Source: Acidobacteriota bacterium
Lineage (GTDB): Bacteria; Acidobacteriota; UBA6911; RPQK01; JAPXNP01
DNA: 64,000 bases
Direction: 5' to 3'
Assembly (NCBI GenBank): GCA_020350445.1
Contig: CP070717.1
Location: 3,793,904-3,857,903 of the forward strand
Shown here: positions 30,049-41,988 of the stretch, in pieces
How positions within the stretch are numbered: the first letter of the stretch is position 1
How the letters are laid out: the number at the start of each line of letters is the position of its first letter
Notes under the pieces: model-generated
Told to the model about the DNA's origin: nothing
The model's input: the letters and a program-made list of their open reading frames with translations, nothing else
Database searches by the model: none
Made by a program: the position numbers and the translations under genes

Positions 30049-30366
30049 ATGGCTGATTTTGTTGTTGGCGACATCACACTCGATATCGATGAAGACGGCT
30101 TCATTCAGCAGCCTGAGGCTTGGAATGAAGCGATTGCGAAAGCTCTCGCTAAGACCGAGGGAGTAGATGAACTGACTGAAGCACATTGGAAAGTAGTCAA
30201 CTATCTGCGCGACTACTACCTCGAGTTCGGTATTGCCCCAATGATCAGAAAGCTCTGCAAGTCGACGGGATTCAAACTGAAGGAAATCTACGAACTCTTT
30301 CCATCGGGACCGGCGAAGGGCGCCTGCAAGGTCGCCGGACTACCGAAACCAACCGGTTGCGTCTAG
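30049..30366 (+). CDS. dsrC: DsrC (TusE/DsrC-family sulfur carrier)
   Basis: 105 aa ending with the invariant DsrC arm …GFKLKEIYELFPSGPAKGACKVAGLPKPTGCV (both conserved Cys). Confidence 0.9.
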   Translation: MADFVVGDITLDIDEDGFIQQPEAWNEAIAKALAKTEGVDELTEAHWKVVNYLRDYYLEFGIAPMIRKLCKSTGFKLKEIYELFPSGPAKGACKVAGLPKPTGCV

Positions 30367-30435
30367 CCGGCTGCCGATGGGGGATGTTCACAGGGATCGG
30401 GTCCGTTCCGGATTTGATGGGAGGATTGGACGGCG

Positions 30436-30978: not shown

Positions 30979-31976
30979 ACGTTTTGGTTGCACTTACTGC
31001 CTTGCTCCTGCTCGGTGGAATCGTCTATCTGGGGGTTGAGATTGCTGGTTTAGAGTTTCTTTTTGGCGTCATCATCCCCTATGCAGCGGTTCTGACCTTC
31101 CTGATCGGCCTGGTGATCCGGGTGATCAGCTGGGCCCGGACTCCGGTCCCGTTCCGGATCACCACAACCTGTGGTCAGCAACGGTCCCTTTCCTGGATTT
31201 CTCCGAACAGGATAGACAATCCTTCGACTACTCTCGGAGTACTGGGCCGGATGGCTCTCGAGATCTTTCTGTTCCGCTCTCTGTTTCGCAATACGCGAAA
31301 CGAATTGAGGGAAGGGGAGAACCGGCTCGTGATCGGTCCGAGCAAATGGCTTTGGCTCATGGGCCTGGCGTTTCACTGGTCGTTCCTGATTATCCTGCTG
31401 CGCCACCTGCGGCTTTTTGTAGAACCGGTGCCACAGATCACCCTTCTGATACAGAGCCTTGACGGGTTCTTTCAGGTGGGTGTCCCGGTGGTCTATTCCA
31501 CCAGCCTCTTGTTCGTGACGGCGGCGACGTTGCTCTTTGTTCGCCGTATCGTCCTGCCCCAGGTTCGCTACCTGTCCCTCCCGACTGACTACTTTCCGCT
31601 CTTCCTGCTGATTTCCATCGCGGGGAGTGGGATCATCCTGCGGCACTTCATCAAAATTGACATTGTCCGGGTCAAGGAAGTCGTACTCGGTTTGATGACG
31701 TTTCGACCGGAAGCTGGTGGCCTGCCCGTCCTGTTCTACTTTCATCTTTTCCTGGTTTCGGTCCTTCTTGCTTACTTCCCCTTCAGCAAGCTGGTCCACA
31801 TGGCGGGAGTCGTACTGAGTCCTACTCGGAATCTCGCCAATAACAACCGTCGAATCCGTCACGTCAATCCCTGGGATTATCCGGTGAAGACCCATACCTA
31901 CCAGGAATACGAAGAGGAATTCAGGGGGAAGATGATCGGTGCCGGAATTCCCGTCGAGGAGGAAGACAATGGCTGA
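30975..31976 (+). CDS. dsrM: DsrM (NarI-like heme-b membrane subunit of the DsrMKJOP complex)
   Basis: 333 aa with 5-6 TM helices and conserved His residues in TM helices. Followed by dsrK. Confidence 0.85.
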   Translation: MNVLVALTALLLLGGIVYLGVEIAGLEFLFGVIIPYAAVLTFLIGLVIRVISWARTPVPFRITTTCGQQRSLSWISPNRIDNPSTTLGVLGRMALEIFLFRSLFRNTRNELREGENRLVIGPSKWLWLMGLAFHWSFLIILLRHLRLFVEPVPQITLLIQSLDGFFQVGVPVVYSTSLLFVTAATLLFVRRIVLPQVRYLSLPTDYFPLFLLISIAGSGIILRHFIKIDIVRVKEVVLGLMTFRPEAGGLPVLFYFHLFLVSVLLAYFPFSKLVHMAGVVLSPTRNLANNNRRIRHVNPWDYPVKTHTYQEYEEEFRGKMIGAGIPVEEEDNG

Positions 31977-33600
31977 GCCCCGTCCGGATGAGATGGAATT
32001 CTACAAGCAGGAGGAGTTGGTACAGATCGACTACACACCTCCTCAAACCAGCTGGATGAGAACACCGGTGGATTTCAGGCCTGGGAGCTGGATTTATCCT
32101 GCCAAGGCTCGCCACCTGGAATACCTCGGACTGGCGAACCCTCGGGAATGGTCGCCTCTGGACGAGGACTGGAAGCTTCCGGAGGATTGGAAGGAGATCA
32201 TCTTTGAAGGAATGCGGGAGCGGCTGAACAAGTACCGCTCTTTCAAACTGTTCATGGATATCTGCGTGCGCTGCGGGGCCTGCGCGGACAAATGTCATTT
32301 CTACATCGGCGGTGGGGATCCGAAGAACATGCCCGTTTTGCGGGCTGAATTGCTCAGGTCGGTGTATCGCAGGGATTTTACCCTGGCCGGAAAGCTGGTG
32401 GGGAAGTGGGTGGGTGCCCGTGAACTGACTCCCGAGGTTCTCAAGGAATGGTTCTACTACTTCTTCCAGTGTACTGAATGCCGGCGCTGCTCGGTCTTCT
32501 GTCCCTATGGGATCGATACCGCCGAGATTACGATCATGGGACGGGAACTGCTCAATCTTCTGGGCCTGAATGTCAACTGGGTGATTGAGCCGGTCTCGAA
32601 CTGTTTCAGAACAGGGAACCACCTCGGCATCCAGCCTCACGGGTTAAAGGACACGCTGGAGTTCTTTGCAGAAGATATCGAAGAGGTTACGGGCATCCAG
32701 GTTGAAATCCCGATCAATCGAAAGGGTGCCGAGATTCTATTCGTCACGCCTTCAGGAGACTTTCTGGCGGACCCGGGGACCTATACCTGCATGGGTTACA
32801 TGATGCTCTTTCACGAGCTGGGGCTGGACTATACCTGGAGTTCCTACGCTTCGGAGGGAGGGAACTTCGGCCTGTTCACCTCCCACGAAATGATCAAGCG
32901 GCTGAATGCCAAGATCTACGCTGAGGCCAGGCGCCTCGGTGTCAAGTGGATCCTGGGCGGAGAATGCGGCCACATGTGGCGGGTCCTGCACCAGTACATG
33001 GACACGATGAATGGTCCGGCGGACTTCCTCGAGGTGCCGAAATCACCGGTGACCGGAACGGTCTTCGAGAACGCAGCATCAACGCGGATGGTTCATATCA
33101 TCGAATTCGTTGCAGATGCGATTCGAAACAACAAACTCCGGCTCGATCCCAGTCGAAACGATGGACTGCGGGTCACCTTCCACGATTCCTGTAATCCCGC
33201 CAGAAGTATGGGTTTTTTCGAGGAGCCGCGTTACGTGATCAAAAGCGTCTGCAACCACTTTTGCGAGATGCCAGAAAACACCATTCGGGAACAGACCTTC
33301 TGCTGTGGCGGTGGGGCAGGGCTGGGAACCGACGAGAATATGGAAATGCGCCTGAGGGGTGGGTTCCCGAGAGGAAACGCAGTCCGCTACGTTCAAGAGA
33401 AACATGGAGTCAATCGGCTCGCCTGCATCTGTGCGATTGATCGGGCAACCCTGTCAACGGTTTGTGACTACTGGGCACCGGGTGTGGAGGTGACGGGAAT
33501 TCATGAGCTTGTCGCCAACGCGATGGTGATGGAAGGCGAGAAGGAACGGACCTTGAATCTTCGACTCGAACCGATCGAACGAGGGGAGGGTGTCTCATGA
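31969..33600 (+). CDS. dsrK: DsrK (HdrD-like Fe-S/CCG-domain catalytic subunit)
   Basis: [4Fe-4S] motifs (CVRCGACADKCH, CTECRRCSVFCP) and CCG-type Cys clusters (FCCGGGAGL). ATG at 31969 has a GAGGAGGAAG RBS; the listed ORF uses an upstream GTG. Confidence 0.85.
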   Translation: MAEPRPDEMEFYKQEELVQIDYTPPQTSWMRTPVDFRPGSWIYPAKARHLEYLGLANPREWSPLDEDWKLPEDWKEIIFEGMRERLNKYRSFKLFMDICVRCGACADKCHFYIGGGDPKNMPVLRAELLRSVYRRDFTLAGKLVGKWVGARELTPEVLKEWFYYFFQCTECRRCSVFCPYGIDTAEITIMGRELLNLLGLNVNWVIEPVSNCFRTGNHLGIQPHGLKDTLEFFAEDIEEVTGIQVEIPINRKGAEILFVTPSGDFLADPGTYTCMGYMMLFHELGLDYTWSSYASEGGNFGLFTSHEMIKRLNAKIYAEARRLGVKWILGGECGHMWRVLHQYMDTMNGPADFLEVPKSPVTGTVFENAASTRMVHIIEFVADAIRNNKLRLDPSRNDGLRVTFHDSCNPARSMGFFEEPRYVIKSVCNHFCEMPENTIREQTFCCGGGAGLGTDENMEMRLRGGFPRGNAVRYVQEKHGVNRLACICAIDRATLSTVCDYWAPGVEVTGIHELVANAMVMEGEKERTLNLRLEPIERGEGVS

Positions 33601-33992
33601 GTGATTACGGAAAGATAATCCTTGGGCTCGTCGGGTTCCTCGTCCTGTGCACTTCTCCGTTTTGGTATCAGGTCCTGAGTTCCGATGGGCTCCCGGCTCC
33701 GGAGCTGAAACTGCCGGTCGGAGAGCAAGGCTGTGTCGAATCCAAGGAGTATATGCGGGCTCTCCACATGGACCTGCTCAATCGCTGGCGAGATGCCGTC
33801 GTACGAGATGGAGAGCGTATCTATGTCTCGACCAGCGGCCGAGAGTATCAGATGAGTCTCACCGGTACCTGCCTGGGTTGCCATACCAGCCGGGCTGACT
33901 TCTGCGATCAGTGCCACACCTATGTCGGGAGCGAGAATTACTGCTGGAGCTGTCATGTTGAGCCGATCAACCTCAGAGTGGAGGCGAGATAG
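33597..33992 (+). CDS. dsrJ: DsrJ (periplasmic triheme cytochrome c)
   Basis: Signal anchor plus three CxxCH motifs (CLGCH, CDQCH, CWSCH) in 131 aa. Confidence 0.85.
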   Translation: MSDYGKIILGLVGFLVLCTSPFWYQVLSSDGLPAPELKLPVGEQGCVESKEYMRALHMDLLNRWRDAVVRDGERIYVSTSGREYQMSLTGTCLGCHTSRADFCDQCHTYVGSENYCWSCHVEPINLRVEAR

Positions 33993-33994
33993 GA

Positions 33995-34783
33995 ATGGAT
34001 AAGCGCAAAAGGAGCTTTCTGAAGGTGGCGGGTTCATCGATCATAGGCGTACTGGGCCTCGGTTGGGTCCGTCCGGTGACAGCTGCGCAGGTGCCGGGAG
34101 CAACCCGCAAACCGGTGGAAGCTCTGACCGGGAAGCGACTTGCTTTGGCCGTGGATGTCAAGAAATGCTCGCTGGAAAAGGGTTGCAGCGCCTGTATTGA
34201 CGCCTGCCATTCGCGGCACAATGTGCCAACGCAGTTGCAGGCTGAGGAAGAAATCAAGTGGATCTGGAAAGAGACCTACGAGCATGCTTTTCCGACCCAG
34301 GCACACCGCTACACCGAATCGACGCTGAAACAGCAGGCGGTGCTGGTGCTTTGCAACCATTGCGAGAATCCACCCTGCGTCCGAGTGTGTCCGACACAGG
34401 CGACCTGGAAGCGTGAAGGCGATGGCCTGATCATGATGGACCAGCACCGCTGCATTGGCTGCCGGTACTGCATGGTTGCCTGTCCCTACGGTTCGCGCAG
34501 TTTCAACTGGCAGGATCCCCGCAGAAGCCTCGGAGATCAACTCAATCGGGAGTATCCGACCCGCATGAAAGGGGTGGTTGAGAAGTGTAACTTCTGTGCG
34601 GAGCGATTGGTCTTCGGAGAAGAACCGCTGTGTGTGGCGGCCTGTCGCAGTAAGTCCCAGGCACTGCTCTTTGGAGACCTCGAAGATCCAGATTCGGAGA
34701 TTTCGAAGACCCTGAAGGAACGACACAGTATTCGGAGAAAGCCGGCCCTGGGGACTGAGCCGCAGGTCTACTACCTGGTGTGA
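33995..34783 (+). CDS. dsrO: DsrO (periplasmic ferredoxin-like Fe-S subunit, Tat-type signal)
   Basis: KRKRSFLKVAGSS Tat-like signal and multiple [4Fe-4S] Cys clusters (CNHCENPPCVRVCP, CIGCRYCMVACP, CNFCAERL). Confidence 0.8.
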   Translation: MDKRKRSFLKVAGSSIIGVLGLGWVRPVTAAQVPGATRKPVEALTGKRLALAVDVKKCSLEKGCSACIDACHSRHNVPTQLQAEEEIKWIWKETYEHAFPTQAHRYTESTLKQQAVLVLCNHCENPPCVRVCPTQATWKREGDGLIMMDQHRCIGCRYCMVACPYGSRSFNWQDPRRSLGDQLNREYPTRMKGVVEKCNFCAERLVFGEEPLCVAACRSKSQALLFGDLEDPDSEISKTLKERHSIRRKPALGTEPQVYYLV

Positions 34784-34790
34784 GGATTTC

Positions 34791-35951
34791 ATGTTAGAAA
34801 AAGCACTCAAAGGCAGTCCAAATTACTGGGGTGGACTCGGCATTCTTGGGGTTGTCATGCTGATCGGCCTGGGCGCCTACTTGAAGCAGTACGACGAAGG
34901 CTTGACGGTGACGGGTCTCAGCCGGGATATCCCCTGGGGCTTCTACATTGCCCAGTTCACCTTCCTTGTCGGAGTTGCCGCCTCTGCTGTCATGGTCGTG
35001 CTCCCCTACTATCTGCACGACTATAAAGCCTTTGGCCGGGTAACAGTCATCGGAGAATTCCTGGCGATCGCCGCTGTCAGCATGTGCATGCTCTTCATCT
35101 TCGTCGATATGGGCCAGCCGCTGAGAGTACTTAACCTGATGCTGTATCCCTCTCCCAACTCATTGATGTTTTGGGACTTCGTTGTCATGACAGGGTACCT
35201 GCTGCTCAATGTTGTTATCACGCAGGTCACCTTTGGCGCAGAAAGGAAGGGTGTGGCCCCTCCGAACTGGATTCGACCGGTAATCATCCTGTCGATTCCC
35301 TGGGCGATCAGTATCCACACGGTGACCGCCTTTCTCTATTCAGGTCTCGAGGCACGGGCGTTCTGGATGACCGCGATCCTGGCGCCGCGGTTTCTCGCTT
35401 CGGCGTTTGCCAGTGGGCCGGCCCTCCTGATCATCCTCTGTACCCTGGTGGGAAGTCAGACGAACTGTCAAATCGGGGGAAAGGCTATCCAGAAGCTTCG
35501 ACAGATCGTCACCTACGCACTGGCCGTCAATATCTTTTTCGTGCTAGTCGAACTGTTCACCGGAATCTACAGCCACATTCCTGAGCACATGGAACATTTT
35601 CAGTATCTTTTCTTCGGCCTCGAAGGAAGGAATGCTCTGGTGCCGTGGATGTGGACGTCTCAAGTGCTGGGAGTGGGGGCACTCGTTCTTCTACTGCTTC
35701 CGGTCTCGGGGAGGAATCAGCGGGTGTTGCTGGGAGTCTGTGTAGCGGTCATTACCTCGATTTGGATCGAAAAAGGGTTGGGTATGGTCGTTACCGGCTT
35801 TATTCCCTCTCCACTTGGTGGTTTGATGGAATACTTTCCGACCGTCCCGGAAATCTTGATTTCCCTGGGGATCTACGCCACTGGACTGGCGATCCTGACG
35901 GTCCTGCTGAAGATCGCGACGACGATTCGAGAGGAACTCGAAACCGCCTGA
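34791..35951 (+). CDS. dsrP: DsrP (NrfD/PsrC-like integral membrane quinone-interacting subunit)
   Basis: 386 aa with about 10 TM helices. Terminal gene of the dsrMKJOP set. Confidence 0.8.
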   Translation: MLEKALKGSPNYWGGLGILGVVMLIGLGAYLKQYDEGLTVTGLSRDIPWGFYIAQFTFLVGVAASAVMVVLPYYLHDYKAFGRVTVIGEFLAIAAVSMCMLFIFVDMGQPLRVLNLMLYPSPNSLMFWDFVVMTGYLLLNVVITQVTFGAERKGVAPPNWIRPVIILSIPWAISIHTVTAFLYSGLEARAFWMTAILAPRFLASAFASGPALLIILCTLVGSQTNCQIGGKAIQKLRQIVTYALAVNIFFVLVELFTGIYSHIPEHMEHFQYLFFGLEGRNALVPWMWTSQVLGVGALVLLLLPVSGRNQRVLLGVCVAVITSIWIEKGLGMVVTGFIPSPLGGLMEYFPTVPEILISLGIYATGLAILTVLLKIATTIREELETA

Positions 35952-35970
35952 CATCATTCAAGGGGGGTGT

Positions 35971-37788
35971 ATGTATCCCGTCATGCTGAATCTGGAGAAC
36001 CGTTCCTGCCTGGTTGTTGGAGGAGGTGGGGTAGCTTTGCGGAAGGTTGAAGGTCTTCTCACCGAAGGCGCGCGGATCACCGTGATCGCACCCGAGCCGG
36101 TCGCAAGACTCGAAGAACTGGAGCAGGAAGGCGCGATCCGACTGGAGCGCCGGGCCTATCGGGAAGGCGAGTTGAGGGGTTATGCCCTGGGGTTTGCCGC
36201 CACCAATGACCGTCGAGTGAACCGGCAGGTATTCTGGGAAGGCGAAAACCTGGGGATCTGGGTGAATGTTGCCGATGACCCGGATATCTGTTCTTTTCAC
36301 CTTCCGGCCCGATTGAAGCGTGGAGCATTGCAGATAGCGATCGCCTCAGCCGGCGAAGCGCCGTTCGTCGTGCGTCGAATTCGGAGGATGCTCGAGAAGG
36401 CCCTGGGGCCGGAGTGGTCAGAATGGATCCAGGCGGCAGCCGGCTTTCGACAGAAGATCAAGAAGAGCAATCTCTCGCCGGCCGAGCAGCAGCGATGTTT
36501 CGACCGGTTTTTCGATTCGACGGTTGATGAGCAGCGGCTCGCAGTTCGGGTCCCGAACCCAACGGAAGAGGCCACCTGGCTCGATCCCCTGAGAGCCTGC
36601 AATTGCTGTGATACGCCTTCGGGGGAACCTGTTTTGCGGGAGCGAAATGGAAAGGGTTGGGTGGCCCTCGTCGGAGCGGGTCCCGGCGACGCGGGCCTAC
36701 TCACTTTGAAGGGTTATCGCAGGCTCCTGGCAGCCGATGCCATCGTCTACGATCACCTGGCTGAAACCGTGCTGCCTCTCGAACTCAGACCCGAGGTTGA
36801 GTTGCACCCCGTTGGAAAGAAGGCCGGCTACCACCCGGTACCGCAGAGTGAGATCAATGCCCTGTTGATTCGCCTCGCAAGCGGGGGGAAACGGGTGGTT
36901 CGCCTCAAAGGTGGAGATCCGTACGTCTTTGGCCGGGGCGGGGAAGAAGCGGAAGCGCTTGTCAACGCGGGAATCGATTTCGAAGTTGTCCCCTGTGTCA
37001 CGGCGGCGACGGCCGTGTCTGCTTATGCCGGGATCCCCGTGACCTACCGCGAAGAGTCGGTTCGTCTCACCCTGGTTACCGCACACGAATGCAGGAAGCT
37101 GGGTGGAAAACAGTCGCGATGGGATCTGATCGCCCGGGATGAGCATGCCACGCTGGTTGGCTACATGGGGGTAACGAGCCTGCCCTCGGTCGTGAAGCGG
37201 CTGATCGAAGAAGGCATGGATGCGCAGACACCGGCTGCGGTCATCGAACGGGGAACGACCTCGCGTCAGCGTTCTGTCCGAAGCCCACTTTGCGAACTGC
37301 CGCAGCGAGCCGCAGAAGCTGGTATTTGTCCACCGGCGATCTTCGCAATTGGACCATCGGTGGCCCGCGCAGAACACCTCGACTGGTTTACGCGCAAGCC
37401 CCTCTTCGGGACGCGGATTGTCCTGGGGTCCTCGGCAAAAAATTTCGCCCGCGAACTGGAAGAGTCGGGAGCGGAAGTCCTGGCGCTGGGGCAGAGGTTG
37501 ACACCCGCTTCTGAGGTTGTTCTGCGTGCCTTGCCGGTCAGTGATCTCCTCTTCGGGTCGCCCGACGAGGTCGATACGCTCGAGGAACTGCGGGGAAGCC
37601 CGGCCGCCGAGGGAATTGAGGCGGCCTGGTGCATTGGGGTTCAGACGGCTGAACGGGCCAGGGAACTCGGCTGGTCTGGAGTCATTGAACTGGCAGGGGA
37701 TATCGACAGCGCAACTCTGGTCAACAGCTTGATTCGACATAAGACTGCCGTCGTCATGCCTCAGGAACTCAAGATTCAGGGGAGGTGA
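35971..37788 (+). CDS. Siroheme synthase-like fusion: precorrin-2 dehydrogenase/ferrochelatase (SirC/CysG-N) + uroporphyrinogen-III C-methyltransferase (CobA/SUMT) + a ~140-aa C-terminal extension (possibly a HemD-like half domain)
   Basis: N-terminal Rossmann LVVGGGGVALRKVEGLL (SirC-like). Central SUMT motifs VGAGPGDAGLLTLKG and GGDPYVFGRGGEE. Total 605 aa versus about 457 aa for E. coli CysG. Begins 20 bp after dsrP. Confidence 0.75.
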   Translation: MYPVMLNLENRSCLVVGGGGVALRKVEGLLTEGARITVIAPEPVARLEELEQEGAIRLERRAYREGELRGYALGFAATNDRRVNRQVFWEGENLGIWVNVADDPDICSFHLPARLKRGALQIAIASAGEAPFVVRRIRRMLEKALGPEWSEWIQAAAGFRQKIKKSNLSPAEQQRCFDRFFDSTVDEQRLAVRVPNPTEEATWLDPLRACNCCDTPSGEPVLRERNGKGWVALVGAGPGDAGLLTLKGYRRLLAADAIVYDHLAETVLPLELRPEVELHPVGKKAGYHPVPQSEINALLIRLASGGKRVVRLKGGDPYVFGRGGEEAEALVNAGIDFEVVPCVTAATAVSAYAGIPVTYREESVRLTLVTAHECRKLGGKQSRWDLIARDEHATLVGYMGVTSLPSVVKRLIEEGMDAQTPAAVIERGTTSRQRSVRSPLCELPQRAAEAGICPPAIFAIGPSVARAEHLDWFTRKPLFGTRIVLGSSAKNFARELEESGAEVLALGQRLTPASEVVLRALPVSDLLFGSPDEVDTLEELRGSPAAEGIEAAWCIGVQTAERARELGWSGVIELAGDIDSATLVNSLIRHKTAVVMPQELKIQGR

Positions 37789-37794
37789 CGGGCG

Positions 37795-38736
37795 ATGGAA
37801 ACGGTTCCTTTCTGGTTCGCCTGTGCAGGGCTGCTCGCGTTTCTGGTCTCCGTGACCCTTCGAACGATGATGTGGTTAAGGATGCCGATCCACGTTCGGT
37901 GGGAACTCTACCCTGTGGCTCATGAGGGAAAAAGGGCCTCCTACGGTGGATCCTATCTCGAAGAGAGTGAATGGTGGAAGAAACCGAGGGAATTCTCGAT
38001 CTGGGGCGAAATCAGGGTAATGGTTCCCGAGATTCTGTTCCTGGTTGCCTTGCGCGAGCACAACCGAAAGCTCTGGTACCGATCCTTCCCGTTTCATTTT
38101 GGCCTCTACCTGATCACCGCCGGAACGGTTCTCATGGGAGGCTTTGCCCTGATGGGATCCCAATGGGAGAGTGCAGAAGGTTTTGCGGGAGTCCTTCGAA
38201 TGGGGATCATTGTATTCGGACTCGCCGGTCTTGTGCTGGGGTTGCTGGGAGCCGCAGGACTGCTGCACCGCAGAATGACAGCCCCTGAGTTGAAGGATTT
38301 CAGCGCTCCTGCCGACCTCTTCAACCTGGCGGTTTTTGTCGCGGTTTTTTCGGTTGCTCTAAGCGGGATTGTCCTGCTCGGAGTCGTGGAGTTTTTCGCT
38401 TCGTTGACCGGCCTGATCGGACAGATTGTGAAGTTGCCGTTTGGCCACGCGGAGGCCCAGGTCCCGGGTATCGTGGGTCTGTCTGTCGTCTTGATGAGTC
38501 TGCTGCTCGCCTACATCCCGTTGACCCACATGTCTCACTTTATCGGGAAGTACTTTGCCTACCATTCGGTTCGCTGGAATGATGCTCCCAATCTGAAGGG
38601 GAGCAAGCAGGAGAAGGTGATTCAGGAGGCCCTGGGCCAGCCTGTCAGCTGGTCTGCCTCCCACATCGCTGGAGATGGAAAGAAAAACTGGGTCGATGTG
38701 GCTACGACGATGCCCGGGGAGATCAAGGACAGATGA
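37795..38736 (+). CDS. NarI/HdrE/DsrM-like membrane b-type cytochrome subunit
   Basis: 313 aa, 5-6 TM helices, with FHFGLYL and a C-terminal HMSHF His pair positioned like the heme-b ligands of the NarI family. Translationally coupled to the following HdrD-like gene. Confidence 0.5.
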   Translation: METVPFWFACAGLLAFLVSVTLRTMMWLRMPIHVRWELYPVAHEGKRASYGGSYLEESEWWKKPREFSIWGEIRVMVPEILFLVALREHNRKLWYRSFPFHFGLYLITAGTVLMGGFALMGSQWESAEGFAGVLRMGIIVFGLAGLVLGLLGAAGLLHRRMTAPELKDFSAPADLFNLAVFVAVFSVALSGIVLLGVVEFFASLTGLIGQIVKLPFGHAEAQVPGIVGLSVVLMSLLLAYIPLTHMSHFIGKYFAYHSVRWNDAPNLKGSKQEKVIQEALGQPVSWSASHIAGDGKKNWVDVATTMPGEIKDR

Positions 38737-40334
38737 GGTCGAGTTGCATGTTTGCTGACTTCTCTCGCGGTGACGACTGCCTTTTCGAGATCAACCAAAA
38801 GGATCAGCAGCCGTTGCCTCCTCCATTTGATGACATCGATGAAGAACCTCTGTTCCGCAGGCTGACCGAGGAAGCGAAGAAGAAGTATGTCTTGCTGGAT
38901 GACACGATTGCAGTCAACATCCCAAAGCCTGAGACGCAGGAGGAGGAAGCGCAGCTGGTTAACAGCTTTCTTTCGGGGCTGCGACGCCTGGTCAGCCGGG
39001 AGGACAACTGGACGTTTCTCGAGCCGCTGATGATCTCACTCGAACACTGTGCCAAATGCCAGACCTGTTCGGAGGGCTGCCATATCTATGAGGAGAGTGG
39101 GCGGCATCCCTACTACCGTCCGTCCTATCGTTCGGAGATCCTGCGCAGGATATACTTCAAGTATCTGAAGAACAGTTCCACCTGGGTTCACGGTGATATC
39201 GAACTGAACTGGAAGACGGTCGCCCGTTTGATCGAACTCTCCTATCGCTGCAACCTCTGCCGTCGCTGTGCTCAGAGCTGCCCAATCGGAGTCGATAACG
39301 CCTTGCTAGCGCGGGAGATTCGAAAGGTGGCGAGCCAGGAAATGGGAATCGTACCGAAGGAACTGCATGATTCAGGCTCCATGCTGCAGCTCAAGGTCGG
39401 ATCCTCGACGGGGATGAATGCCATCGTGGCCAGGGATAACGTGGAGTTCATCGATGAAGACACGACCGACCGAACGGGAATTGCCGTCGAGACTCCCTGG
39501 GATAAGGAAGGTGCAGATATCCTGCTGATCCATAATGCCGGGGAGATCATGGCCTGGCCCGAAAACCCAGGGGGCTTCGCACTGTTGTTCAGCGCCGCAG
39601 GCCTCAGCTGGACGATGTCGAGTGACCTGGCGGCCTATGATGGGATCAACTACGGGGTCTGGTACGACGATTTCCAGTTCGCCCGCACTGCACTCCTGCA
39701 TTTGGAAGCGGCCCGGAAGCTGAAGGTCAAGAAGATCGTCATCGGAGAATGCGGACACGCTCATAAGGCTCTGTCAGTGATTGCCGACAAGGTGGTAACC
39801 GGAGACCTCAACATCCCGCGAGAAAGTGGGATCAACGTGTTGCGTGATATCGTTCGGGAGGGTCGCGTCAAGTTCGACAAGAGTCGCAACGATTTTCCGG
39901 TGACCCTGCATGATCCGTGCAACCTGGTGAGATTGATGGGAATTGTTTCGCCCCAGCGGGAGATCATCGAGGCGATCGTTCCCAAAGAGCGGTTCCGAGA
40001 AATGGAACCGCACGGGGTCGAGAATTACTGCTGTGGTGGAGGCTCCGGATTTGCCATCATGTCAGGACACAATTTCGCGCACTGGAGGCATCATGTCTCG
40101 GGCCGAAGAAAGCTCCGACAGGTCCTCGAAGCCTTTCAAGGAGAGGTGATGGATATGGAGCATCCCAAGTATGTCTGTGCACCCTGCAGCAACTGTAAAG
40201 GTCAGCTCAGAGACATCATTGCCTATTACGACGCCTGGGAAAGGGCCGGGATCTATTACGGGGGCCTGGTGGAATTGATGGTCAACGCCATGGTCGACGC
40301 CCAGCCCGGCTACATCGATTGGGAATGGCATTGA
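38733..40334 (+). CDS. HdrD/DsrK-like Fe-S protein with CCG domains (second DsrK-like paralog)
   Basis: Two [4Fe-4S] ferredoxin motifs (CAKCQTCSEGCH, CNLCRRCAQSCP) and CCG clusters (ENYCCGGGSGF, CAPCSNCKG). About 90-aa N-terminal extension. Confidence 0.7.
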   Translation: MRSSCMFADFSRGDDCLFEINQKDQQPLPPPFDDIDEEPLFRRLTEEAKKKYVLLDDTIAVNIPKPETQEEEAQLVNSFLSGLRRLVSREDNWTFLEPLMISLEHCAKCQTCSEGCHIYEESGRHPYYRPSYRSEILRRIYFKYLKNSSTWVHGDIELNWKTVARLIELSYRCNLCRRCAQSCPIGVDNALLAREIRKVASQEMGIVPKELHDSGSMLQLKVGSSTGMNAIVARDNVEFIDEDTTDRTGIAVETPWDKEGADILLIHNAGEIMAWPENPGGFALLFSAAGLSWTMSSDLAAYDGINYGVWYDDFQFARTALLHLEAARKLKVKKIVIGECGHAHKALSVIADKVVTGDLNIPRESGINVLRDIVREGRVKFDKSRNDFPVTLHDPCNLVRLMGIVSPQREIIEAIVPKERFREMEPHGVENYCCGGGSGFAIMSGHNFAHWRHHVSGRRKLRQVLEAFQGEVMDMEHPKYVCAPCSNCKGQLRDIIAYYDAWERAGIYYGGLVELMVNAMVDAQPGYIDWEWH

Positions 40335-40350
40335 GTTAGAAGGGGGAATC

Positions 40351-41670
40351 TTGATGGTTGAGAACAGTGACAGCAAGGATGATGTGAGTCGTTCGAACCT
40401 CTTGAAGCTGGAAGACTGGTGGGCCGTCTGGATTGGTGGGGGGCTTCTTCTGATCTGTGTCCTGGTGCCCGGGCTTACGATTCCCAAGGTCGGGAAGTGG
40501 TTGACGTCTCCATTCGAAGTGGTCAGCCCCGAGCTCGTGGTTGGCATTCTGATCCTGGGTCTGTTCCTGGCCCTTTTCCTTTCGGTCGGGACCTGGATTA
40601 TGGACTCCGTTGTCTGGACATTCCTGAGAGGCTTCTGGCTGGTCTTCCTGATCGCCGTGGTGTCCTACATTGTGGCTGAACAGCGGGCGATTGCCGCCAA
40701 GGGATTGGGGTACGCCCTCTGGGCCCTCCTGATCGGCCTGCTGGTCTCGAACACGGTCGGTGTCCCGGAATGGCTCCGGGGAGGTCTGAGGAGTGAGTTG
40801 TTCATCAAGATCGGCCTGGTTCTTCTGGGTGCCGAAATCCTGTTTGGGAATATCCTGGTATTGGGCCTTCCTGGTCTCTTCGTTGCCTGGCTGGTGACTC
40901 CGGTTGTCATCATCACCATGTTCTGGTTTGGCACACGGGTTCTCCGGATGTCGAGCAAGGCCCTGGTCATCGTCGTGGCTGCGGCCACTTCCGTCTGTGG
41001 GGTGTCGGCCGCGATTGCCGCGGCCGCTGCTTCGAGGGCGAAGAAGGAAGAACTGACCCTGGCGGTGGGCATGACGCTGATCTTTACCGTCCTGATGATG
41101 GTGGGAATGCCGCTCCTGGTGAAGACTTCGGGAATGGATGCCGTGGTGGGGGCCGCCTGGATTGGAGGGACGGTCGATGCCACGGGTGCCGTGGTTGCCG
41201 CCGGTTCCATGCTCGGTGAACGGGCCGAACAGGTCGCTGCCGTAGTGAAGATGATCCAGAACATCCTGATTGGAGTGGTGGCCTTCTTCATCGCGCTGTT
41301 CTGGGTGGCGCGGGTCGAACGGGAGCCATCCGGGCGGAGACCCGATGCCATGGAGGTCTGGCGGCGGTTTCCGAAATTCATCGTCGGATTCCTGGCCGCT
41401 TCGTTGATCTTCTCGTTCCTTTTGGAGCCCACGATGGGCTCAGATGCAGTCAGGGGAATCCTCGCCCAGTCAAAGGCCTTGAGGGGATGGTTCTTCTGCC
41501 TGGCATTCGTCAGTATCGGCCTGGAATCGAACTTCGTCGAACTCAAAAAGCAGATGGCGGGGGGCAAGCCGATCCAGCTCTATATCGTCGGCCAGAGCTT
41601 CAACCTGGTTTTGACTCTCCTGGCGGCTTATCTCGCTTTCGGGGGGATTCTTTTCGCCCTTGATTTCTGA
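40351..41670 (+). CDS. Integral membrane protein, YeiH/UPF0324-like (putative sulfate-exporter family)
   Basis: 439 aa with about 10-11 TM helices and Gly/Ala-rich helices (AAATSVCGVSAAIAAAAAS) reminiscent of the YeiH family. Assignment is tentative. Confidence 0.4.
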   Translation: MMVENSDSKDDVSRSNLLKLEDWWAVWIGGGLLLICVLVPGLTIPKVGKWLTSPFEVVSPELVVGILILGLFLALFLSVGTWIMDSVVWTFLRGFWLVFLIAVVSYIVAEQRAIAAKGLGYALWALLIGLLVSNTVGVPEWLRGGLRSELFIKIGLVLLGAEILFGNILVLGLPGLFVAWLVTPVVIITMFWFGTRVLRMSSKALVIVVAAATSVCGVSAAIAAAAASRAKKEELTLAVGMTLIFTVLMMVGMPLLVKTSGMDAVVGAAWIGGTVDATGAVVAAGSMLGERAEQVAAVVKMIQNILIGVVAFFIALFWVARVEREPSGRRPDAMEVWRRFPKFIVGFLAASLIFSFLLEPTMGSDAVRGILAQSKALRGWFFCLAFVSIGLESNFVELKKQMAGGKPIQLYIVGQSFNLVLTLLAAYLAFGGILFALDF

Positions 41671-41715: not shown

Positions 41716-41988
41716 ATGACTGAGATTGTGGCGGGGACAGGGCAATTGAACGACAGGACACTGTTGTCGAGGGTGGGCTACCTCCTGTTTGGATTCCTCC
41801 TGCTCGGTGGATTCATCCTCCTGCTCGCGATCCCGGTATCGTGGCCGGGAGCCTGGGGAGAGACGTTTGACCACAATTTCGAGACGGGTCGGACAGCATC
41901 CAGCCTCTTCTACACGGAAGTCGAGGGTTACTGGGAGCTCGAAGCGGCTCTGAAGAAAGACGTGGTGGACGGCTCGATTAACCGGTAG
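41716..41988 (+). CDS. Small hypothetical membrane protein (one TM helix)
   Basis: 90-aa ORF with a hydrophobic segment LLFGFLLLGGFILLLAIPV. No recognisable family. Confidence 0.3.
   Translation: MTEIVAGTGQLNDRTLLSRVGYLLFGFLLLGGFILLLAIPVSWPGAWGETFDHNFETGRTASSLFYTEVEGYWELEAALKKDVVDGSINR

What the first reader, a model, noticed from the sequence alone, without database searches (positions are those of the whole stretch)
37795..41670. Second DsrMK-like (NarI-like + HdrD-like CCG protein) module plus a YeiH-like putative sulfate exporter immediately after the dsr–siroheme operon
Downstream of dsrMKJOP and the siroheme-synthase fusion there is another translationally coupled membrane b-cytochrome / CCG-domain Fe-S pair. 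It lacks the J, O and P partners and is followed by a roughly 10-TM YeiH/UPF0324-like protein. This looks like a minimal quinol:disulfide (DsrC-trisulfide or other thiol/disulfide) oxidoreductase. The HdrD-like subunit carries an unusual acidic 90-aa N-terminal extension.
Basis: partly seen in the sequence, partly recalled or inferred. Interest (0 to 1): 0.6.

Follow-up and report, generated by a model that had tools for sequence, protein, structure and literature searches.

The report
Second DsrMK module (dsrM2K2) plus YeiH
Right after the sulfite-reduction (dsr) operon of an Acidobacteriota genome sits a second, already named kind of membrane electron-transfer pair (dsrM2K2), a bacterial counterpart of the Archaeoglobus DsrMK(K) module, followed by a YeiH-type transporter; it is a known kind, but the membrane subunit seems to hold one heme instead of two.

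Summary
Three same-strand genes lie at 37795-41670: a NarI-like membrane protein (M2, 313 aa), a Fe-S/CCG protein (K2, 533 aa) and a PF03601/YeiH transporter (about 438 aa). They follow dsrC-T-MKJOP-cysG after a 6-nt gap.

K2 is closest to DsrK but scores below NCBI's DsrK cut-off. It is 30% identical to the window's own DsrK and 57% identical to the second K subunit of the A. fulgidus DsrMK(K) locus. The M2-K2 pair was adjacent wherever it could be scored (69 of 80 related genome loci), often next to dsrC or other dsr genes. The literature already calls such pairs dsrM2/dsrK2, so this is a new member of a known kind.

Corrections and additions:
- The N-terminal "extension" is family-wide, confidently modelled, and matched in length by the true DsrK.
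- M2 keeps only the proximal heme-ligand pair (H101, H248). The distal pair is T111 and S230, as in 45 of 65 family members. The solved single-heme EtfD is a precedent.
- K2 keeps the DsrK Cys/His pair (C340, H342) but has an Hdr-type Cys (C488) where DsrMKJOP-type DsrK has Asp.
- YeiH linkage is rare (about 4 loci), and recent genetics points to sulfite, not sulfate.

Best reading: a single-heme, probably electroneutral quinone-linked reductase acting on DsrC-bound sulfur.

The parts
37795..38736 (+). M2 (dsrM2-type): NarI-family membrane subunit, 313 aa, five hydrophobic TM helices, long conserved TM1-TM2 loop (residues 28-96) and conserved C-terminal tail (249-300)
   Evidence: PF02665 E 7e-9. 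23% identical to the window's DsrM and 39% to the A. fulgidus 308-aa M. AF2 pLDDT 80.7 with five long helices. Best fold match is NarI 1q16_C. Hydropathy gives 5 TM segments.
38095..38097 (+). M2 His101 codon: equivalent of NarI H56 / DsrM H134 (proximal heme ligand, TM2); invariant in the family
   Evidence: Alignments with E. coli NarI and DsrM; 65/65 family members; codon checked.
38536..38538 (+). M2 His248 codon: equivalent of NarI H205 / DsrM H275 (proximal heme ligand, TM5); invariant in the family
38125..38127 (+). M2 Thr111 codon: position of the distal heme ligand NarI H66 / DsrM H144; His in only 2 of 65 family members, otherwise variable
38482..38484 (+). M2 Ser230 codon: position of the distal heme ligand NarI H187 / DsrM H257; His in 20 of 65 family members, not in the window lineage
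38733..40334 (+). K2 (dsrK2-type): cytoplasmic Fe-S/CCG subunit, 533 aa; ATGA overlap with M2 (alternative start ATG at 38748)
   Evidence: Fer4_8 plus CCG. NCBIfam DsrK 320.6 bits, below the 400 cut-off. 30% identical to the window's DsrK and 57% to the A. fulgidus 538-aa K. AF2 pLDDT 82.7. Best fold match is EtfD 9ojn, then LutA and HdrB.
39048..39080 (+). K2 first CX2CX2CX3C motif (C106, C109, C112, C116), cubane [4Fe-4S] site
   Evidence: Conserved in essentially all groups of the alignment; codons checked.
39249..39281 (+). K2 second CX2CX2CX3C motif (C173, C176, C179, C183), cubane [4Fe-4S] site
39750..39758 (+). K2 Cys340-Gly-His342 (GECGH): aligned with the window DsrK's C343/H345, taken as the non-ligating Cys329 / His331 of A. 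fulgidus DsrK
   Evidence: 75/75 family members and 8/8 true DsrK. Role of these residues as given by Yin et al. 2026; the A. fulgidus DsrK sequence itself was not aligned here.
39918..40196 (+). K2 single complete CCG domain: C396, C433-C434, C485-x-x-C488 (plus C482); C488 occupies the position that is Asp in DsrMKJOP-type DsrK
   Evidence: PF02754 at residues 390-493. C488 in 75/75 K2 family members against Asp in 8/8 dsrJOP-linked DsrK, including D501 in the window.
40351..41670 (+). YeiH/PF03601-family transporter, about 438 aa, 11-12 hydrophobic segments
   Evidence: PF03601 E 4e-54. TIGR00698 83 bits, below the 232.6 cut-off. 100% identical to an NCBI Acidobacteriota entry. Hydropathy.
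41716..41988 (+). Possible small membrane-protein ORF (90 aa) after the transporter; membership uncertain
   Evidence: ORF listed. Weak similarity (E 0.003; shared N-terminal TM and FYTE motif) to an 81-aa ORF that follows the YeiH homologue in L082.
30049..37788 (+). Upstream context in the same orientation: dsrC, dsrT, dsrM, dsrK, dsrJ, dsrO, dsrP and the 605-aa siroheme-synthase fusion; probably one transcription unit with the module (inferred)
   Evidence: NCBIfam DsrM 492 bits, DsrK 740 bits, CysG 430 bits; Pfam RsbRD_N for dsrT. dsrC, dsrJ, dsrO and dsrP were named from the ORF translations and from their matches to co-located homologues in the related loci. 6-nt gap to M2. No convincing terminator between them.

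Best explanation
M2 and K2 form a two-subunit, membrane-bound, quinone-linked sulfur/disulfide reductase of the dsrM2K2 type. They are the bacterial orthologue of the Archaeoglobus fulgidus DsrMK(K) module. They sit in the dsr operon as a second, JOP-independent route between the menaquinone pool and DsrC.

Proposed electron path (inferred from cofactor motifs and from the solved EtfD and DsrMKJOP structures):
1. Menaquinol binds at a site on the cytoplasmic half of M2.
2. Electrons pass to one heme b held by H101 and H248.
3. They continue through the two cubane [4Fe-4S] clusters of K2.
4. They reach one non-cubane [4Fe-4S] cluster in the single complete CCG domain.
5. Sulfur carried by DsrC (trisulfide, persulfide or disulfide) is handled there with the help of C340 and H342.

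M2 lacks the distal heme ligands, and all its conserved residues lie on the cytoplasmic side. The reaction is therefore expected to be electroneutral, with no redox-loop contribution to the proton-motive force, and readily reversible. This differs from DsrMKJOP, where quinol is oxidised at DsrP with proton release to the periplasm.

Shown here: gene order, family membership, cofactor motifs, loss of the distal ligands, synteny with dsrC and other dsr genes.
Inferred: the substrate, the heme count, the quinone site, the direction and the energetics.

The YeiH-like protein is a co-transcribed but only loosely associated transporter. It most plausibly protects against, or exports, sulfite.
For: Family placement:
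- K2 is nearest DsrK among curated models: 320 bits, against TmcB 193, HmcF 180 and GlpC 19.5.
- K2 is 57% identical to the A. fulgidus 538-aa K and 47% to AF0543. M2 is 39% identical to the adjacent 308-aa M, including the M2-specific motifs.
- That archaeal module is described as a constitutively, highly expressed second dsrMK(K) (PMC3949148).
- NJ tree: K2 plus AF0543-type sequences form a clade with 96% bootstrap, separate from the dsrJOP-linked DsrK clade at 100%.

Synteny:
- M2 and K2 are adjacent in all 69 loci where the pair could be scored.
- 38 of 69 carry dsr, qmo, apr, sat or siroheme genes in the flanks.
- dsrC is the immediate upstream gene in 11 loci, typically as dsrAB-D-N-L-C-M2-K2.

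Cofactor motifs:
- Two CX2CX2CX3C motifs, one complete CCG domain, and invariant C340/H342 matching the DsrK Cys329/His331 pair.

Single heme:
- The alignment with E. coli NarI maps H56/H205 to H101/H248 and H66/H187 to T111/S230.
- 45 of 65 family members have the pattern HxxH, and the residues at the two lost positions vary.
- 23 invariant residues lie in the cytoplasmic halves of the TM helices against 1 in the periplasmic halves.

Structural precedent:
- The closest solved fold to K2, and the second closest to M2, is M. smegmatis EtfD.
- EtfD has five TM helices, a single heme b, and a menaquinone 4-5 A from that heme (PMC13083937).
Against: - No experiment exists on any bacterial member. 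Substrate, heme content and direction are all inferred.
- K2 scores below NCBI's DsrK cut-off.
- K2 has Cys488 where all dsrJOP-linked DsrK have Asp. Yin et al. suggest that this Asp tunes the cluster for the perthiosulfenate intermediate. K2 may therefore do ordinary Hdr-type disulfide chemistry on a different substrate.
- About half of the loci show no dsr gene within the DNA held. Instead, 33 of 69 carry two-component signalling genes.
- 18 of 65 M2 proteins keep one distal His and 2 keep both, so heme content may differ within the family.
- Five M2-specific near-invariant His residues (H33, H43, H245, H257, H290) have no assigned role. They could in principle ligate a cofactor.
- The topology is taken from NarI homology, not measured.
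- The tree is neighbour-joining on 435 columns. It contains no named HdrD, TmcB or HmcF reference sequences, and the inner nodes are weak (16-56%).
Confidence: 0.5

Rival explanations
1. M2K2 is a general Hdr-like quinone:disulfide oxidoreductase that does not act on DsrC. Its role would be redox homeostasis or signalling. It would couple the redox state of the menaquinone pool to a thiol/disulfide signal that is read by, or controlled through, two-component systems.
For: - K2 keeps the Hdr-type 'supernumerary' Cys (C488) instead of the DsrK Asp.
- A stand-alone receiver domain is the gene immediately downstream of K2 in 21 of 69 loci and immediately upstream of M2 in 13. PAS histidine kinases and sigma-54 activators flank the pair in Desulfobacterales.
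- A third DsrK-like paralogue in the same neighbourhoods is physically fused to a receiver domain (Fer4_8 + CCG + Response_reg).
- MerR-like or Rrf2 regulators lie directly upstream in 12 loci.
Against: - In the window there is no receiver or kinase gene next to the pair. It sits inside the dsr operon.
- dsrC is the immediate neighbour in 11 loci.
- C340 and H342, the residues assigned to sulfur relay and protonation in DsrK, are invariant.
- Flanking regulators may simply control expression of the pair.
Confidence: 0.2
2. The module runs mainly in the oxidative direction. It would pass electrons from DsrC-bound or other thiol/persulfide sulfur to menaquinone during sulfide oxidation or sulfur disproportionation. 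The YeiH-like protein would remove the sulfite (or sulfate) end product.
For: - The window encodes a DsrL-like protein (53671-55407). dsrL precedes dsrC-M2K2 in many related loci.
- Hausmann et al. argue that DsrL-carrying Acidobacteria might reverse the pathway (PMC6018796).
- A single-heme, cytoplasm-side quinone site, as in EtfD, which reduces menaquinone, would work equally well in reverse.
- An oxyanion exporter of the YeiH family is adjacent.
Against: - dsrD, an activator typical of reductive and disproportionating organisms according to the literature, is present at 27205-27444.
- No dsrEFH was seen in the window.
- Direction cannot be read from sequence.
- The YeiH linkage is rare.
- This rival concerns direction rather than identity and overlaps the best explanation.
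Confidence: 0.15
3. M2, K2 and the YeiH-like protein form one dedicated functional unit, for example a sulfite-stress or sulfite-export system powered or gated by the redox pair.
For: - The three genes are 16-19 nt apart on one strand in the window.
- The same order occurs in the related Acidobacteriota locus L001. A YeiH homologue also lies near the pair in L018 (Gemmatimonadota) and L082.
- YeiH confers sulfite resistance in Salmonella.
Against: - Only 2 of the 80 fetched genome loci (L001, L018) carry a YeiH homologue near the pair, plus L082 found separately. The very close Acidobacteriota locus L002 lacks it.
- Close YeiH orthologues (63-65% identity) sit next to yceG and ruvX with no M2K2 nearby.
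- PF03601 transporters need no redox partner in enterobacteria.
Confidence: 0.08
4. It is an ETF:menaquinone oxidoreductase of the EtfD/EMO type split into two genes, or the gamma subunit of a respiratory nitrate reductase as several databases label M2 homologues.
For: - The closest solved structure is EtfD.
- NCBI and JGI label M2 homologues 'respiratory nitrate reductase subunit gamma'.
Against: - K2 is only 16% identical to EtfD.
- In the partial alignment to EtfD, K2 has no Cys at the first ligand position of the first CCG-domain cluster; only C340 remains in that half.
- No etfAB or narGH gene recurs in the 80 neighbourhoods.
- NCBIfam narI scores 22.8 bits against a cut-off of 105.
Confidence: 0.02

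Closest known systems
Archaeoglobus fulgidus DsrMK(K) module (AF0543-AF0545 region; 'second copy of dsrMK(K)', Hocking et al. 2014, PMC3949148)
   Same: - Same gene order, M then K.
- K2 is 57% identical to the 538-aa K and 47% to AF0543; M2 is 39% identical to the 308-aa M.
- Shared M2-specific motifs: RWELYPVxHE, YGGS, EWW, and the tail YHxVxWxDxPN...W(S/A)APHI.
- Shared K2 N-terminal region and CAPCSNCK motif.
   Different: - The archaeal locus has two K genes in tandem; the window has one.
- The archaeal M keeps one distal His (pattern HxHH); the window M2 has none (HxxH).
- The archaeal module is not inside a dsr operon.
dsrM2/dsrK2 'DsrMK paralogues' of sulfate/sulfite reducers (Hausmann et al. 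2018, PMC6018796; Neukirchen et al. 2023 'dsrMK-only' basal clade, PMC10504309)
   Same: - A second NarI-like/CCG pair without dsrJOP, in genomes that also carry dsrMKJOP.
- Occurs in Acidobacteriota and Desulfobacterota among others.
   Different: - The literature places dsrM2K2 'upstream of dsrAB'. Here it follows dsrMKJOP-cysG.
- Neukirchen et al. state that the DsrM histidines are highly conserved. Most of this family lacks the distal pair.
- I could not align the published dsrM2K2 sequences directly, so identity with that set is inferred from description and taxonomy.
DsrMK of the DsrMKJOP complex (cryo-EM of A. fulgidus DsrMKJOP, Yin et al. 2026, bioRxiv 10.64898/2026.08.25.746951)
   Same: - NarI-family M plus a K with two cubane clusters and one non-cubane cluster.
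- Conserved non-ligating Cys and His (C340, H342 = C329, H331).
- Same overall length, including the N-terminal region.
   Different: - Only 30% (K) and 23% (M) identity to the window's own DsrK and DsrM.
- K2 scores 320.6 bits on the DsrK model (cut-off 400) and M2 31.2 bits on the DsrM model (cut-off 300); both are below NCBIfam's cut-offs.
- Cys488 in place of Asp500.
- The DsrK-specific Cys (C222 in the window's DsrK) is absent.
- No distal heme ligands in M2.
- M2 has an extra conserved C-terminal tail.
- No J, O or P partners.
Mycobacterium smegmatis EtfD (PDB 9OJN; PMC13083937)
   Same: - Closest solved fold for K2 (Foldseek E 9e-11) and second closest for M2.
- A five-TM NarI-like domain with a single heme b on two His, a quinone site next to that heme on the cytoplasmic side, then two cubane clusters and a non-cubane cluster. 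This is the cofactor chain predicted for M2K2.
   Different: - EtfD is one fused polypeptide that accepts electrons from ETF and reduces menaquinone.
- It has a second CCG-domain cluster (a linear [3Fe-4S]).
- Only 16% sequence identity to K2.
Methanogen HdrDE / HdrB (PDB 5ODC) heterodisulfide reductase
   Same: - CCG-domain non-cubane cluster with the full CXnCCXmCXXC motif, including the supernumerary Cys.
- A membrane b-cytochrome partner.
- HdrB is the third-best fold match.
   Different: - Hdr has two non-cubane clusters; K2 has one complete CCG domain plus a lone Cys.
- From my own knowledge, not tested here: HdrE is usually described as a two-heme cytochrome b, and Hdr acts on CoM-S-S-CoB.
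YeiH (Salmonella/E. coli) and BP2808 (Bordetella pertussis), PF03601 / TC 2.A.98 'putative sulfate exporter' family
   Same: - PF03601 over residues 94-408.
- A multi-TM inner-membrane protein.
- A sulfur-oxyanion context.
   Different: - Scores below NCBI's YeiH subfamily cut-off (83 against 232.6 bits).
- Has an N-terminal extension of about 90 aa before the Pfam match.
- No YeiE-type LysR regulator is adjacent.
- Experimental evidence in the family is for sulfite stress resistance, not proven transport.

Membership tests
DsrK (DsrMKJOP-type catalytic subunit) | Reaches the curated equivalog score of NCBIfam NF045796 (400 bits) | tested here: not met
   K2 scores 320.6 bits; the window's true DsrK scores 740.4. 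Ten further relatives of K2 score 197-353 bits.
DsrK (DsrMKJOP-type catalytic subunit) | Two ferredoxin-type CX2CX2CX3C motifs for cubane [4Fe-4S] clusters | tested here: met
   C106-C116 and C173-C183, conserved in essentially all groups.
DsrK (DsrMKJOP-type catalytic subunit) | A single complete CCG domain (one non-cubane cluster) plus a conserved non-ligating Cys and nearby His (A. fulgidus C329, H331) | tested here: met
   C396, C433, C434 and C485 plus C340 and H342, in 75/75 family members. Residue roles are taken from Yin et al..
DsrK (DsrMKJOP-type catalytic subunit) | Asp replacing the Hdr 'supernumerary' Cys as cluster ligand (A. fulgidus D500) | tested here: not met
   K2 has C488 in 75/75 family members. 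dsrJOP-linked DsrK has Asp in 8/8, including D501 in the window. Yin et al. analysed only dsrMKJOP-encoded DsrK.
DsrK (DsrMKJOP-type catalytic subunit) | Encoded with dsrJ, dsrO and dsrP | tested here: not met
   No J, O or P gene follows K2 in the window. In related loci JOP always follows the other DsrK paralogue.
DsrK (DsrMKJOP-type catalytic subunit) | Binds and reduces DsrC-trisulfide (DsrC-contact residues F258, H210, E292 of A. fulgidus DsrK) | not testable with these tools
   The A. fulgidus DsrK sequence could not be fetched, so residues could not be mapped with confidence. The DsrK-invariant stretches TGNHLG and SEGGNFG correspond to GSSTGM and YDGINYG in K2.
DsrM / NarI-type di-heme cytochrome b | Four His ligands: two in TM2 spaced by 10 residues and two in TM5 spaced by 18 (NarI H56, H66, H187, H205) | tested here: not met
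   The window's DsrM has H134, H144, H257 and H275. M2 has H101, T111, S230 and H248. Family patterns: HxxH 45, HxHH 18, HHHH 2.
DsrM / NarI-type di-heme cytochrome b | NarI fold with five TM helices | tested here: met
   PF02665; five hydrophobic segments; AF2 model with five long helices; best PDB match NarI, probability 1.00.
DsrM / NarI-type di-heme cytochrome b | Reaches the NCBIfam DsrM equivalog score (300 bits) | tested here: not met
   31.2 bits, against 491.7 for the window's DsrM.
dsrM2K2 / A. fulgidus DsrMK(K)-type module | Adjacent NarI-like and CCG genes without dsrJOP, orthologous to AF0543-AF0545 | tested here: met
   57% (K) and 39% (M) identity over nearly full length, with shared family-specific motifs. 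Pair adjacency in 69/69 scorable loci.
dsrM2K2 / A. fulgidus DsrMK(K)-type module | Occurs in dsrAB/dsrC-carrying organisms, often alongside dsrMKJOP | tested here: met
   The window carries dsrABDNC and dsrMKJOP. 38 of 69 related loci carry dsr, qmo, apr or sat genes within the flanks. Whole-genome co-occurrence was not tested.
HdrD / HdrB heterodisulfide reductase | Two complete CCG domains (two non-cubane clusters) | tested here: not met
   Only one complete CCG motif; the other half retains only C340.
   LdhH 29.6, LutB 27.5 and GlpC 19.5 bits, against DsrK 320.6.
TmcB / HmcF | Curated equivalog score (735 / 750 bits) and cytochrome c partners | tested here: not met
   193 and 180 bits. 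No cytochrome c gene is adjacent.
YeiH / PF03601 (TC 2.A.98 PSE family) | Pfam PF03601 domain above the gathering score | tested here: met
   184.1 bits against a cut-off of 24.5.
YeiH / PF03601 (TC 2.A.98 PSE family) | NCBIfam TIGR00698 YeiH subfamily cut-off (232.6 bits) | tested here: not met
   83.2 bits. NCBI nevertheless names the identical protein 'putative sulfate exporter family transporter'.
YeiH / PF03601 (TC 2.A.98 PSE family) | Transports or protects against sulfite/sulfate | not testable with these tools
   Only genetic evidence from Salmonella and B. pertussis exists for the family.

The most novel reading that the evidence does not exclude
The window's pair represents a large, cross-phylum subfamily of DsrMK-like modules, found from Archaeoglobus to Acidobacteriota, Planctomycetota, Gemmatimonadota and Desulfobacterota. 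This subfamily is mechanistically distinct from both DsrMKJOP and the two-heme 'DsrM-1' DsrMK. It has lost the distal heme and the periplasmic quinol site. It keeps an Hdr-type all-cysteine non-cubane cluster. It works as an electroneutral, reversible 'low-gear' link between the menaquinone pool and DsrC (or another thiol). In many lineages it sits under, or feeds into, two-component control, with receiver domains adjacent or fused. This would explain why organisms with a complete DsrMKJOP keep a second module. It would also fill the gap left by the 2026 DsrMKJOP structure paper, which excluded genomes that carry both.
Probability: 0.3. Interest if true: 0.6.

Novelty: new member of a known kind. 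Interest (0 to 1): 0.4.

Why it matters
Second DsrMK copies are routinely listed in genome papers but have never been characterised. The 2026 cryo-EM study of DsrMKJOP excluded genomes that carry both versions, and it analysed only dsrMKJOP-encoded DsrK.

If the sequence-level differences found here hold up, they would show that sulfate/sulfite reducers and related sulfur-cycling bacteria carry two energetically different routes from the quinone pool to DsrC. One route would be coupled to the proton-motive force; the other would be neutral and reversible. The differences in question are one heme instead of two, conservation only on the cytoplasmic side, and Cys instead of the DsrK Asp.

That bears on two open questions. 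One is whether menaquinol-driven DsrC reduction is thermodynamically feasible. The other is how DsrL-carrying Acidobacteria might switch the direction of the pathway.

There are also practical consequences for annotation:
- M2 homologues are widely mislabelled 'respiratory nitrate reductase gamma subunit'.
- The neighbouring 'sulfate exporter' label is probably better read as sulfite-related.

Tried and rejected
- An exact look-up of K2 in the contig index found nothing. The organism was identified later through the identical YeiH entry.
- The Pereira et al. 2011 comparative-genomics paper (PMC3119410) is not held. Three literature searches for dsrMK paralogue descriptions gave only brief mentions.
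- A sequence search of the PDB found no DsrK or DsrM structure, only EtfD at E 2e-6. The DsrMKJOP cryo-EM work exists only as a preprint without sequences I could use.
- The promoter/terminator scan gave nothing above background around the module.
- Single-linkage clustering at a loose threshold merged all Fe-S proteins into one cluster. It was repeated at 35% identity and 70% coverage.
- I considered whether the M2-specific His33 and His43 could replace the missing distal ligands. This is unlikely. By alignment to NarI, the loop that carries them is the TM1-TM2 loop, which is cytoplasmic by NarI homology. It is modelled with low confidence, as expected for an interface with K2. No coordinates were available to measure distances.
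- Mapping of the DsrC-contact residues of A. fulgidus DsrK (H210, F258, E292) onto K2 was attempted through the window's DsrK. The offsets are not constant, so no claim is made.
- The NarGHI, EtfD/ETF, GlpC/Lut, Tmc/Hmc and canonical HdrD readings were rejected on scores and gene context.
- One Pfam call failed on a wrong frame and was repeated.

Full report
**1. The observation**

- M2: 37795-38736, 313 aa.
- K2: 38733-40334, 533 aa.
- A PF03601 protein: 40351-41670, with ATG at 40354.

M2 starts 6 nt after the stop of a 605-aa siroheme-synthase fusion and has a GGGGAGG ribosome-binding site. M2 and K2 overlap in ATGA. A second ATG at 38748 is the likely start of a 528-aa, 100%-identical database copy, so the coupling may instead be an 11-nt gap. 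The transporter follows K2 after 16-19 nt.

Pfam and NCBIfam give the following.
- M2: PF02665 NarI-like. DsrM model only 31 bits (cut-off 300).
- K2: Fer4_8 plus CCG. DsrK 320.6 bits (cut-off 400), TmcB 193, HmcF 180, LdhH 30, GlpC 19.5.
- Third gene: PF03601, E 4e-54. The YeiH subfamily model scores 83 bits (cut-off 232.6).

The window is a complete dissimilatory sulfur island.
- Minus strand, upstream: a DASS transporter.
- Plus strand: dsrA, dsrB, dsrD, dsrN, a DVU0298-family gene, a TPR gene, dsrC, dsrT, dsrMKJOP, the cysG fusion, M2, K2 and the YeiH-like gene.
- Convergent on the minus strand: OsmC-like, qmoCBA, a CxxCxxCC protein, aprA (split), aprB and sat.
- Plus strand again: a DsrL-like gene.

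The transporter is 100% identical to an NCBI entry from a 5.13-Mb Acidobacteriota contig.

**2. What family it is**

K2 has more than 4900 homologues. Apart from one 100%-identical copy, the best 120 are 72-83% identical over the full 533 residues. The few that carry a source name come from Acidobacteriota, Planctomycetota, Myxococcota, Methylomirabilota and Pseudomonadota MAGs.

In species-representative genomes, 207 stretches encode a relative. I fetched 80 loci from at least 15 lineages. M2 and K2 were adjacent, in that order, in all 69 loci where both could be scored.

K2 is only 30% identical to the window's own DsrK, and M2 is 23% identical to DsrM.

A scan of 1.84 billion cluster representatives shows a graded cloud of DsrK-like proteins. 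All ten that I scored fall below NCBI's DsrK cut-off. One representative, P0124, is A. fulgidus AAB90694.1/O29707.

I fetched that archaeal locus. It holds a 308-aa NarI-like gene followed by two K genes of 521 and 538 aa. A divergently transcribed second pair (244 aa and 477 aa) lies next to it.
- The window's K2 is 57% identical to the 538-aa K over residues 20-529.
- M2 is 39% identical to the 308-aa M, including every M2-specific motif.

Hocking et al. 2014 describe this archaeal set as a constitutively, highly expressed second dsrMK(K), AF0543-AF0545.

In a neighbour-joining tree (435 columns, 60 bootstraps), K2 plus the AF0543-type sequences form a clade with 96% support. The dsrJOP-linked DsrK clade is separate, with 100% support. 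The inner nodes are weak.

The literature already names such pairs.
- 'dsrMK-paralogs (dsrM2, dsrK2) ... not uncommon in SRM' (Hausmann 2018).
- A basal 'dsrMK-only' clade whose deltaproteobacterial members also carry DsrMKJOP (Neukirchen 2023).

The module is therefore a member of a known kind.

**3. Gene neighbourhood**

Of the 69 scored loci, 38 carry dsr, qmo, apr, sat or siroheme genes in the flanks I hold.

- dsrC is the gene immediately upstream of M2 in 11 loci. The typical order there is dsrA-dsrB-dsrD-dsrN-(145-aa gene)-dsrL-dsrC-M2-K2.
- The cysG-like gene is immediately upstream on the same strand in 6 loci, the window's arrangement.
- A different pattern dominates in Desulfobacterales and elsewhere. 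Stand-alone receiver domains lie directly downstream of K2 in 21 loci and directly upstream of M2 in 13.
- PAS histidine kinases and sigma-54 activators flank the pair in those loci. A MerR-like regulator lies directly upstream in 10 loci and an Rrf2 regulator in 2.
- A third DsrK-like paralogue in these neighbourhoods is fused to a receiver domain.

The YeiH-like gene accompanies the pair only in the window, L001 (Acidobacteriota), L018 (Gemmatimonadota) and L082. Close YeiH orthologues elsewhere sit next to yceG and ruvX.

**4. The K2 subunit**

K2 has two CX2CX2CX3C motifs (C106-C116 and C173-C183). It has one complete CCG motif (C396, C433-C434, C485-x-x-C488). A lone invariant C340-G-H342 remains in the degenerate first half.

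Yin et al. (2026 preprint) solved A. fulgidus DsrMKJOP. They report that C329, H331 and D500 of DsrK are strictly conserved. D500 replaces the Hdr 'supernumerary' cysteine. C329 acts as a sulfur relay.

K2 keeps the Cys and the His. At the D500 position it has Cys488, in 75 of 75 family members. All 8 dsrJOP-linked DsrK in my set have Asp, including D501 in the window. The DsrK-specific Cys (C222 in the window's DsrK) is also absent from K2.

That preprint analysed only dsrMKJOP-encoded DsrK. For DsrM it excluded genomes that carry both versions. This class was therefore not covered.

The N-terminal 100 residues are not an oddity.
- The true DsrK has its first Fe-S Cys at residue 109, against 106 in K2.
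- The region is conserved across the family at 43% mean identity to the window, against 64-70% for the rest of the protein.
- It aligns with the archaeal orthologue from residue 20.
- It is modelled with pLDDT 81-94.

The best solved fold match for K2 is M. smegmatis EtfD (E 9e-11), then LutA and HdrB.

**5. The M2 subunit**

An alignment that includes E. coli NarI (locus L081) maps the four heme ligands as follows.

| NarI | Window DsrM | M2 | Heme |
|---|---|---|---|
| H56 | H134 | H101 | proximal |
| H66 | H144 | T111 | distal |
| H187 | H257 | S230 | distal |
| H205 | H275 | H248 | proximal |

The assignment of proximal (H56/H205) and distal (H66/H187) follows from NarI topology and is my recollection of the NarGHI structure literature.

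Across 65 family members the pattern is HxxH in 45, HxHH in 18 and HHHH in 2. The residues at the two lost positions are variable.
- All six same-strand cysG-adjacent relatives scored lack both distal His, like the window.
- Most dsrC-adjacent relatives keep the TM5 distal His.
- The A. fulgidus 308-aa M is HxHH, and its neighbour, the 244-aa M, is HHHH.

No other conserved His lies in the periplasmic half of the window's M2.

Conservation is one-sided. There are 23 invariant residues in the cytoplasmic halves of the five helices, against 1 in the periplasmic halves and 0 in the periplasmic loops.

M2 also has features that DsrM lacks.
- A near-invariant TM1-TM2 loop: RWELYPVAHE...YGGS...EWW.
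- A conserved C-terminal tail of about 50 residues.

AF2 gives these two regions low confidence, as would be expected for interface segments modelled without the partner.

The M2 model (pLDDT 80.7) has five long helices. It matches NarI best, then EtfD. The EtfD structure has five TM helices, a single heme b on two His, cluster D4 at 7 A from the heme, and a menaquinone 4-5 A from the heme. This is a solved precedent for the single-heme arrangement I infer.

A contrasting case is the Syntrophus EMO complex. It has extra distal hemes and uses them for a proton-motive-force-driven reverse redox loop.

**6. Mechanism**

Most likely (confidence about 0.5), M2K2 is a JOP-independent, quinone-linked reductase for DsrC-bound sulfur. 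The cofactor chain would be: quinone, one heme b, two cubane clusters, one non-cubane cluster.

The distal heme and the NarI-type periplasmic quinol site appear to be lost. Quinol would then be oxidised near the cytoplasmic face. The reaction would be electroneutral and easily reversible. This contrasts with DsrMKJOP, where quinol is oxidised at DsrP with proton release to the periplasm. It also contrasts with the two-heme 'DsrM-1' that Yin et al. predict to oxidise quinol at the periplasmic face.

The substrate assignment rests on synteny and on the C340/H342 pair. Cys488 argues for caution.

Rival readings:
- An Hdr-like thiol/disulfide module tied to two-component signalling (0.2).
- Mainly oxidative operation in a DsrL-carrying organism (0.15; this overlaps the best explanation).
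- A dedicated unit with the transporter (0.08).
- EtfD-type or NarI-type functions (0.02).

**7. The transporter**

It is a PF03601 protein with 11-12 hydrophobic segments. It scores below the YeiH subfamily cut-off.

'Sulfate exporter' is only a database label. In Salmonella, yeiH is the main determinant of sulfite stress resistance. The B. pertussis homologue BP2808 is treated as a putative sulfite exporter. A sulfite-related role fits an operon whose enzymes make and consume cytoplasmic sulfite. The link to M2K2 is lineage-specific.

**8. Verdict**

- The module is a new member of a known, named but uncharacterised kind.
- The single-heme M2 and the Cys-for-Asp K2 are, as far as the papers I could search show, not described. 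They make the long-standing question of why reducers keep a second DsrMK directly testable.
- Interest 0.4.

Noticed in passing
window 48372-50248 (minus strand): aprA is split into two overlapping ORFs. 49337-50248 holds the N-terminal FAD-binding part. 48372-49421 matches aprA model positions 269-616. This is a frameshift: either a pseudogene or an assembly error, in an otherwise intact sat-aprBA-qmoABC set.
   Followed up: partly
L005 8161-9897; L008 11585-13351; L016 11905-13662; L058 2867-4426 (with small NarI-like genes alongside): This is a third DsrK-like paralogue. In the 578-aa representative scanned (L005) it is fused at its C-terminus to a response-regulator receiver domain (Fer4_8 + CCG + Response_reg). 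It is paired with a short (~234 aa) NarI-like protein that also keeps only the proximal His pair. It often lies within a few kb of M2K2.
   Followed up: partly
L036, L040, L043, L045-L050, L052, L060, L062, L064, L067, L069, L070, L074, L082 and others: In many lineages the M2K2 pair is bracketed by stand-alone receiver domains, PAS histidine kinases and a sigma-54 activator. The sigma-54 activator representative has a PAS domain and an N-terminal region with no Pfam match. A receiver gene lies directly downstream of K2 in 21 of 69 loci.
   Followed up: partly
L018 6494-7012 and 9 further loci (L028, L032-L034, L037, L048, L055, L058, L063): A 172-aa MerR-family regulator with a cysteine-rich C-terminal half lies directly upstream of M2 in 10 loci. 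An Rrf2 regulator takes that place in 2 others.
   Followed up: no
window 53671-55407 (+): This is a DsrL-like protein: Fer4_20 plus pyridine-nucleotide-disulfide oxidoreductase plus a C-terminal ferredoxin domain, 578 aa. It lies beyond sat, in a genome that also has dsrD. This is the combination discussed for peatland Acidobacteria that may run the pathway in either direction.
   Followed up: partly
window 41716-41988 (+); L082 11306-11551: A 90-aa ORF with one TM helix follows the YeiH-like gene, and its end overlaps the end of the convergent OsmC-like gene. An 81-aa ORF in the same position in L082 shares an N-terminal TM helix and an FYTE motif (E 0.003). It may be a conserved small partner of this transporter subfamily.
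   Followed up: partly
window 35971-37788 (+): The siroheme-synthase fusion is 605 aa. The CysG-like part ends near residue 465. The last ~140 residues match no Pfam family, and only the first part of them is covered by a uroporphyrin-III C-methyltransferase model (PRK07168, to residue 537). The same long form precedes M2 in L001, L002, L005, L006, L008 and L009.
   Followed up: no
database entries P0492, P0522, P0531, P0554, P0558 and JGI entries: M2 homologues are annotated as 'respiratory nitrate reductase subunit gamma' or 'nitrate reductase', although no narGH gene accompanies them. K2 homologues are labelled only '(Fe-S)-binding protein' or 'Fe-S oxidoreductase'.
   Followed up: yes
window 41978-42379 (minus); L001 11276-11659; L002 8888-9280: An OsmC-like (peroxiredoxin-type) gene sits between the module and qmoC in the window and in both close Acidobacteriota relatives. 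It seems to be the last gene of the qmo-apr-sat strand.
   Followed up: no
window 28883-30009 (+) and 47151-47999 (minus): Three genes of unclear role are embedded in the sulfur island. A DVU0298-family protein and a TPR protein lie between dsrN and dsrC. A CxxCxxCC (PF03692) protein lies between qmoA and aprA.
   Followed up: no
L085 (A. fulgidus AE000782.1 489553-501118): A. fulgidus carries two different JOP-less pairs back to back. One is a 244-aa M with all four heme histidines plus a 477-aa K. The other is the 308-aa M (three histidines) plus two K genes. Together with Hme/DsrMKJOP, that makes three module types in one genome.
   Followed up: partly
L059, L061, L065, L068, L072, L075, L013, L005: A conserved 145-aa protein with no Pfam match sits between dsrN and dsrL in the dsrAB-D-N-x-L-C-M2K2 clusters.
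   Followed up: no
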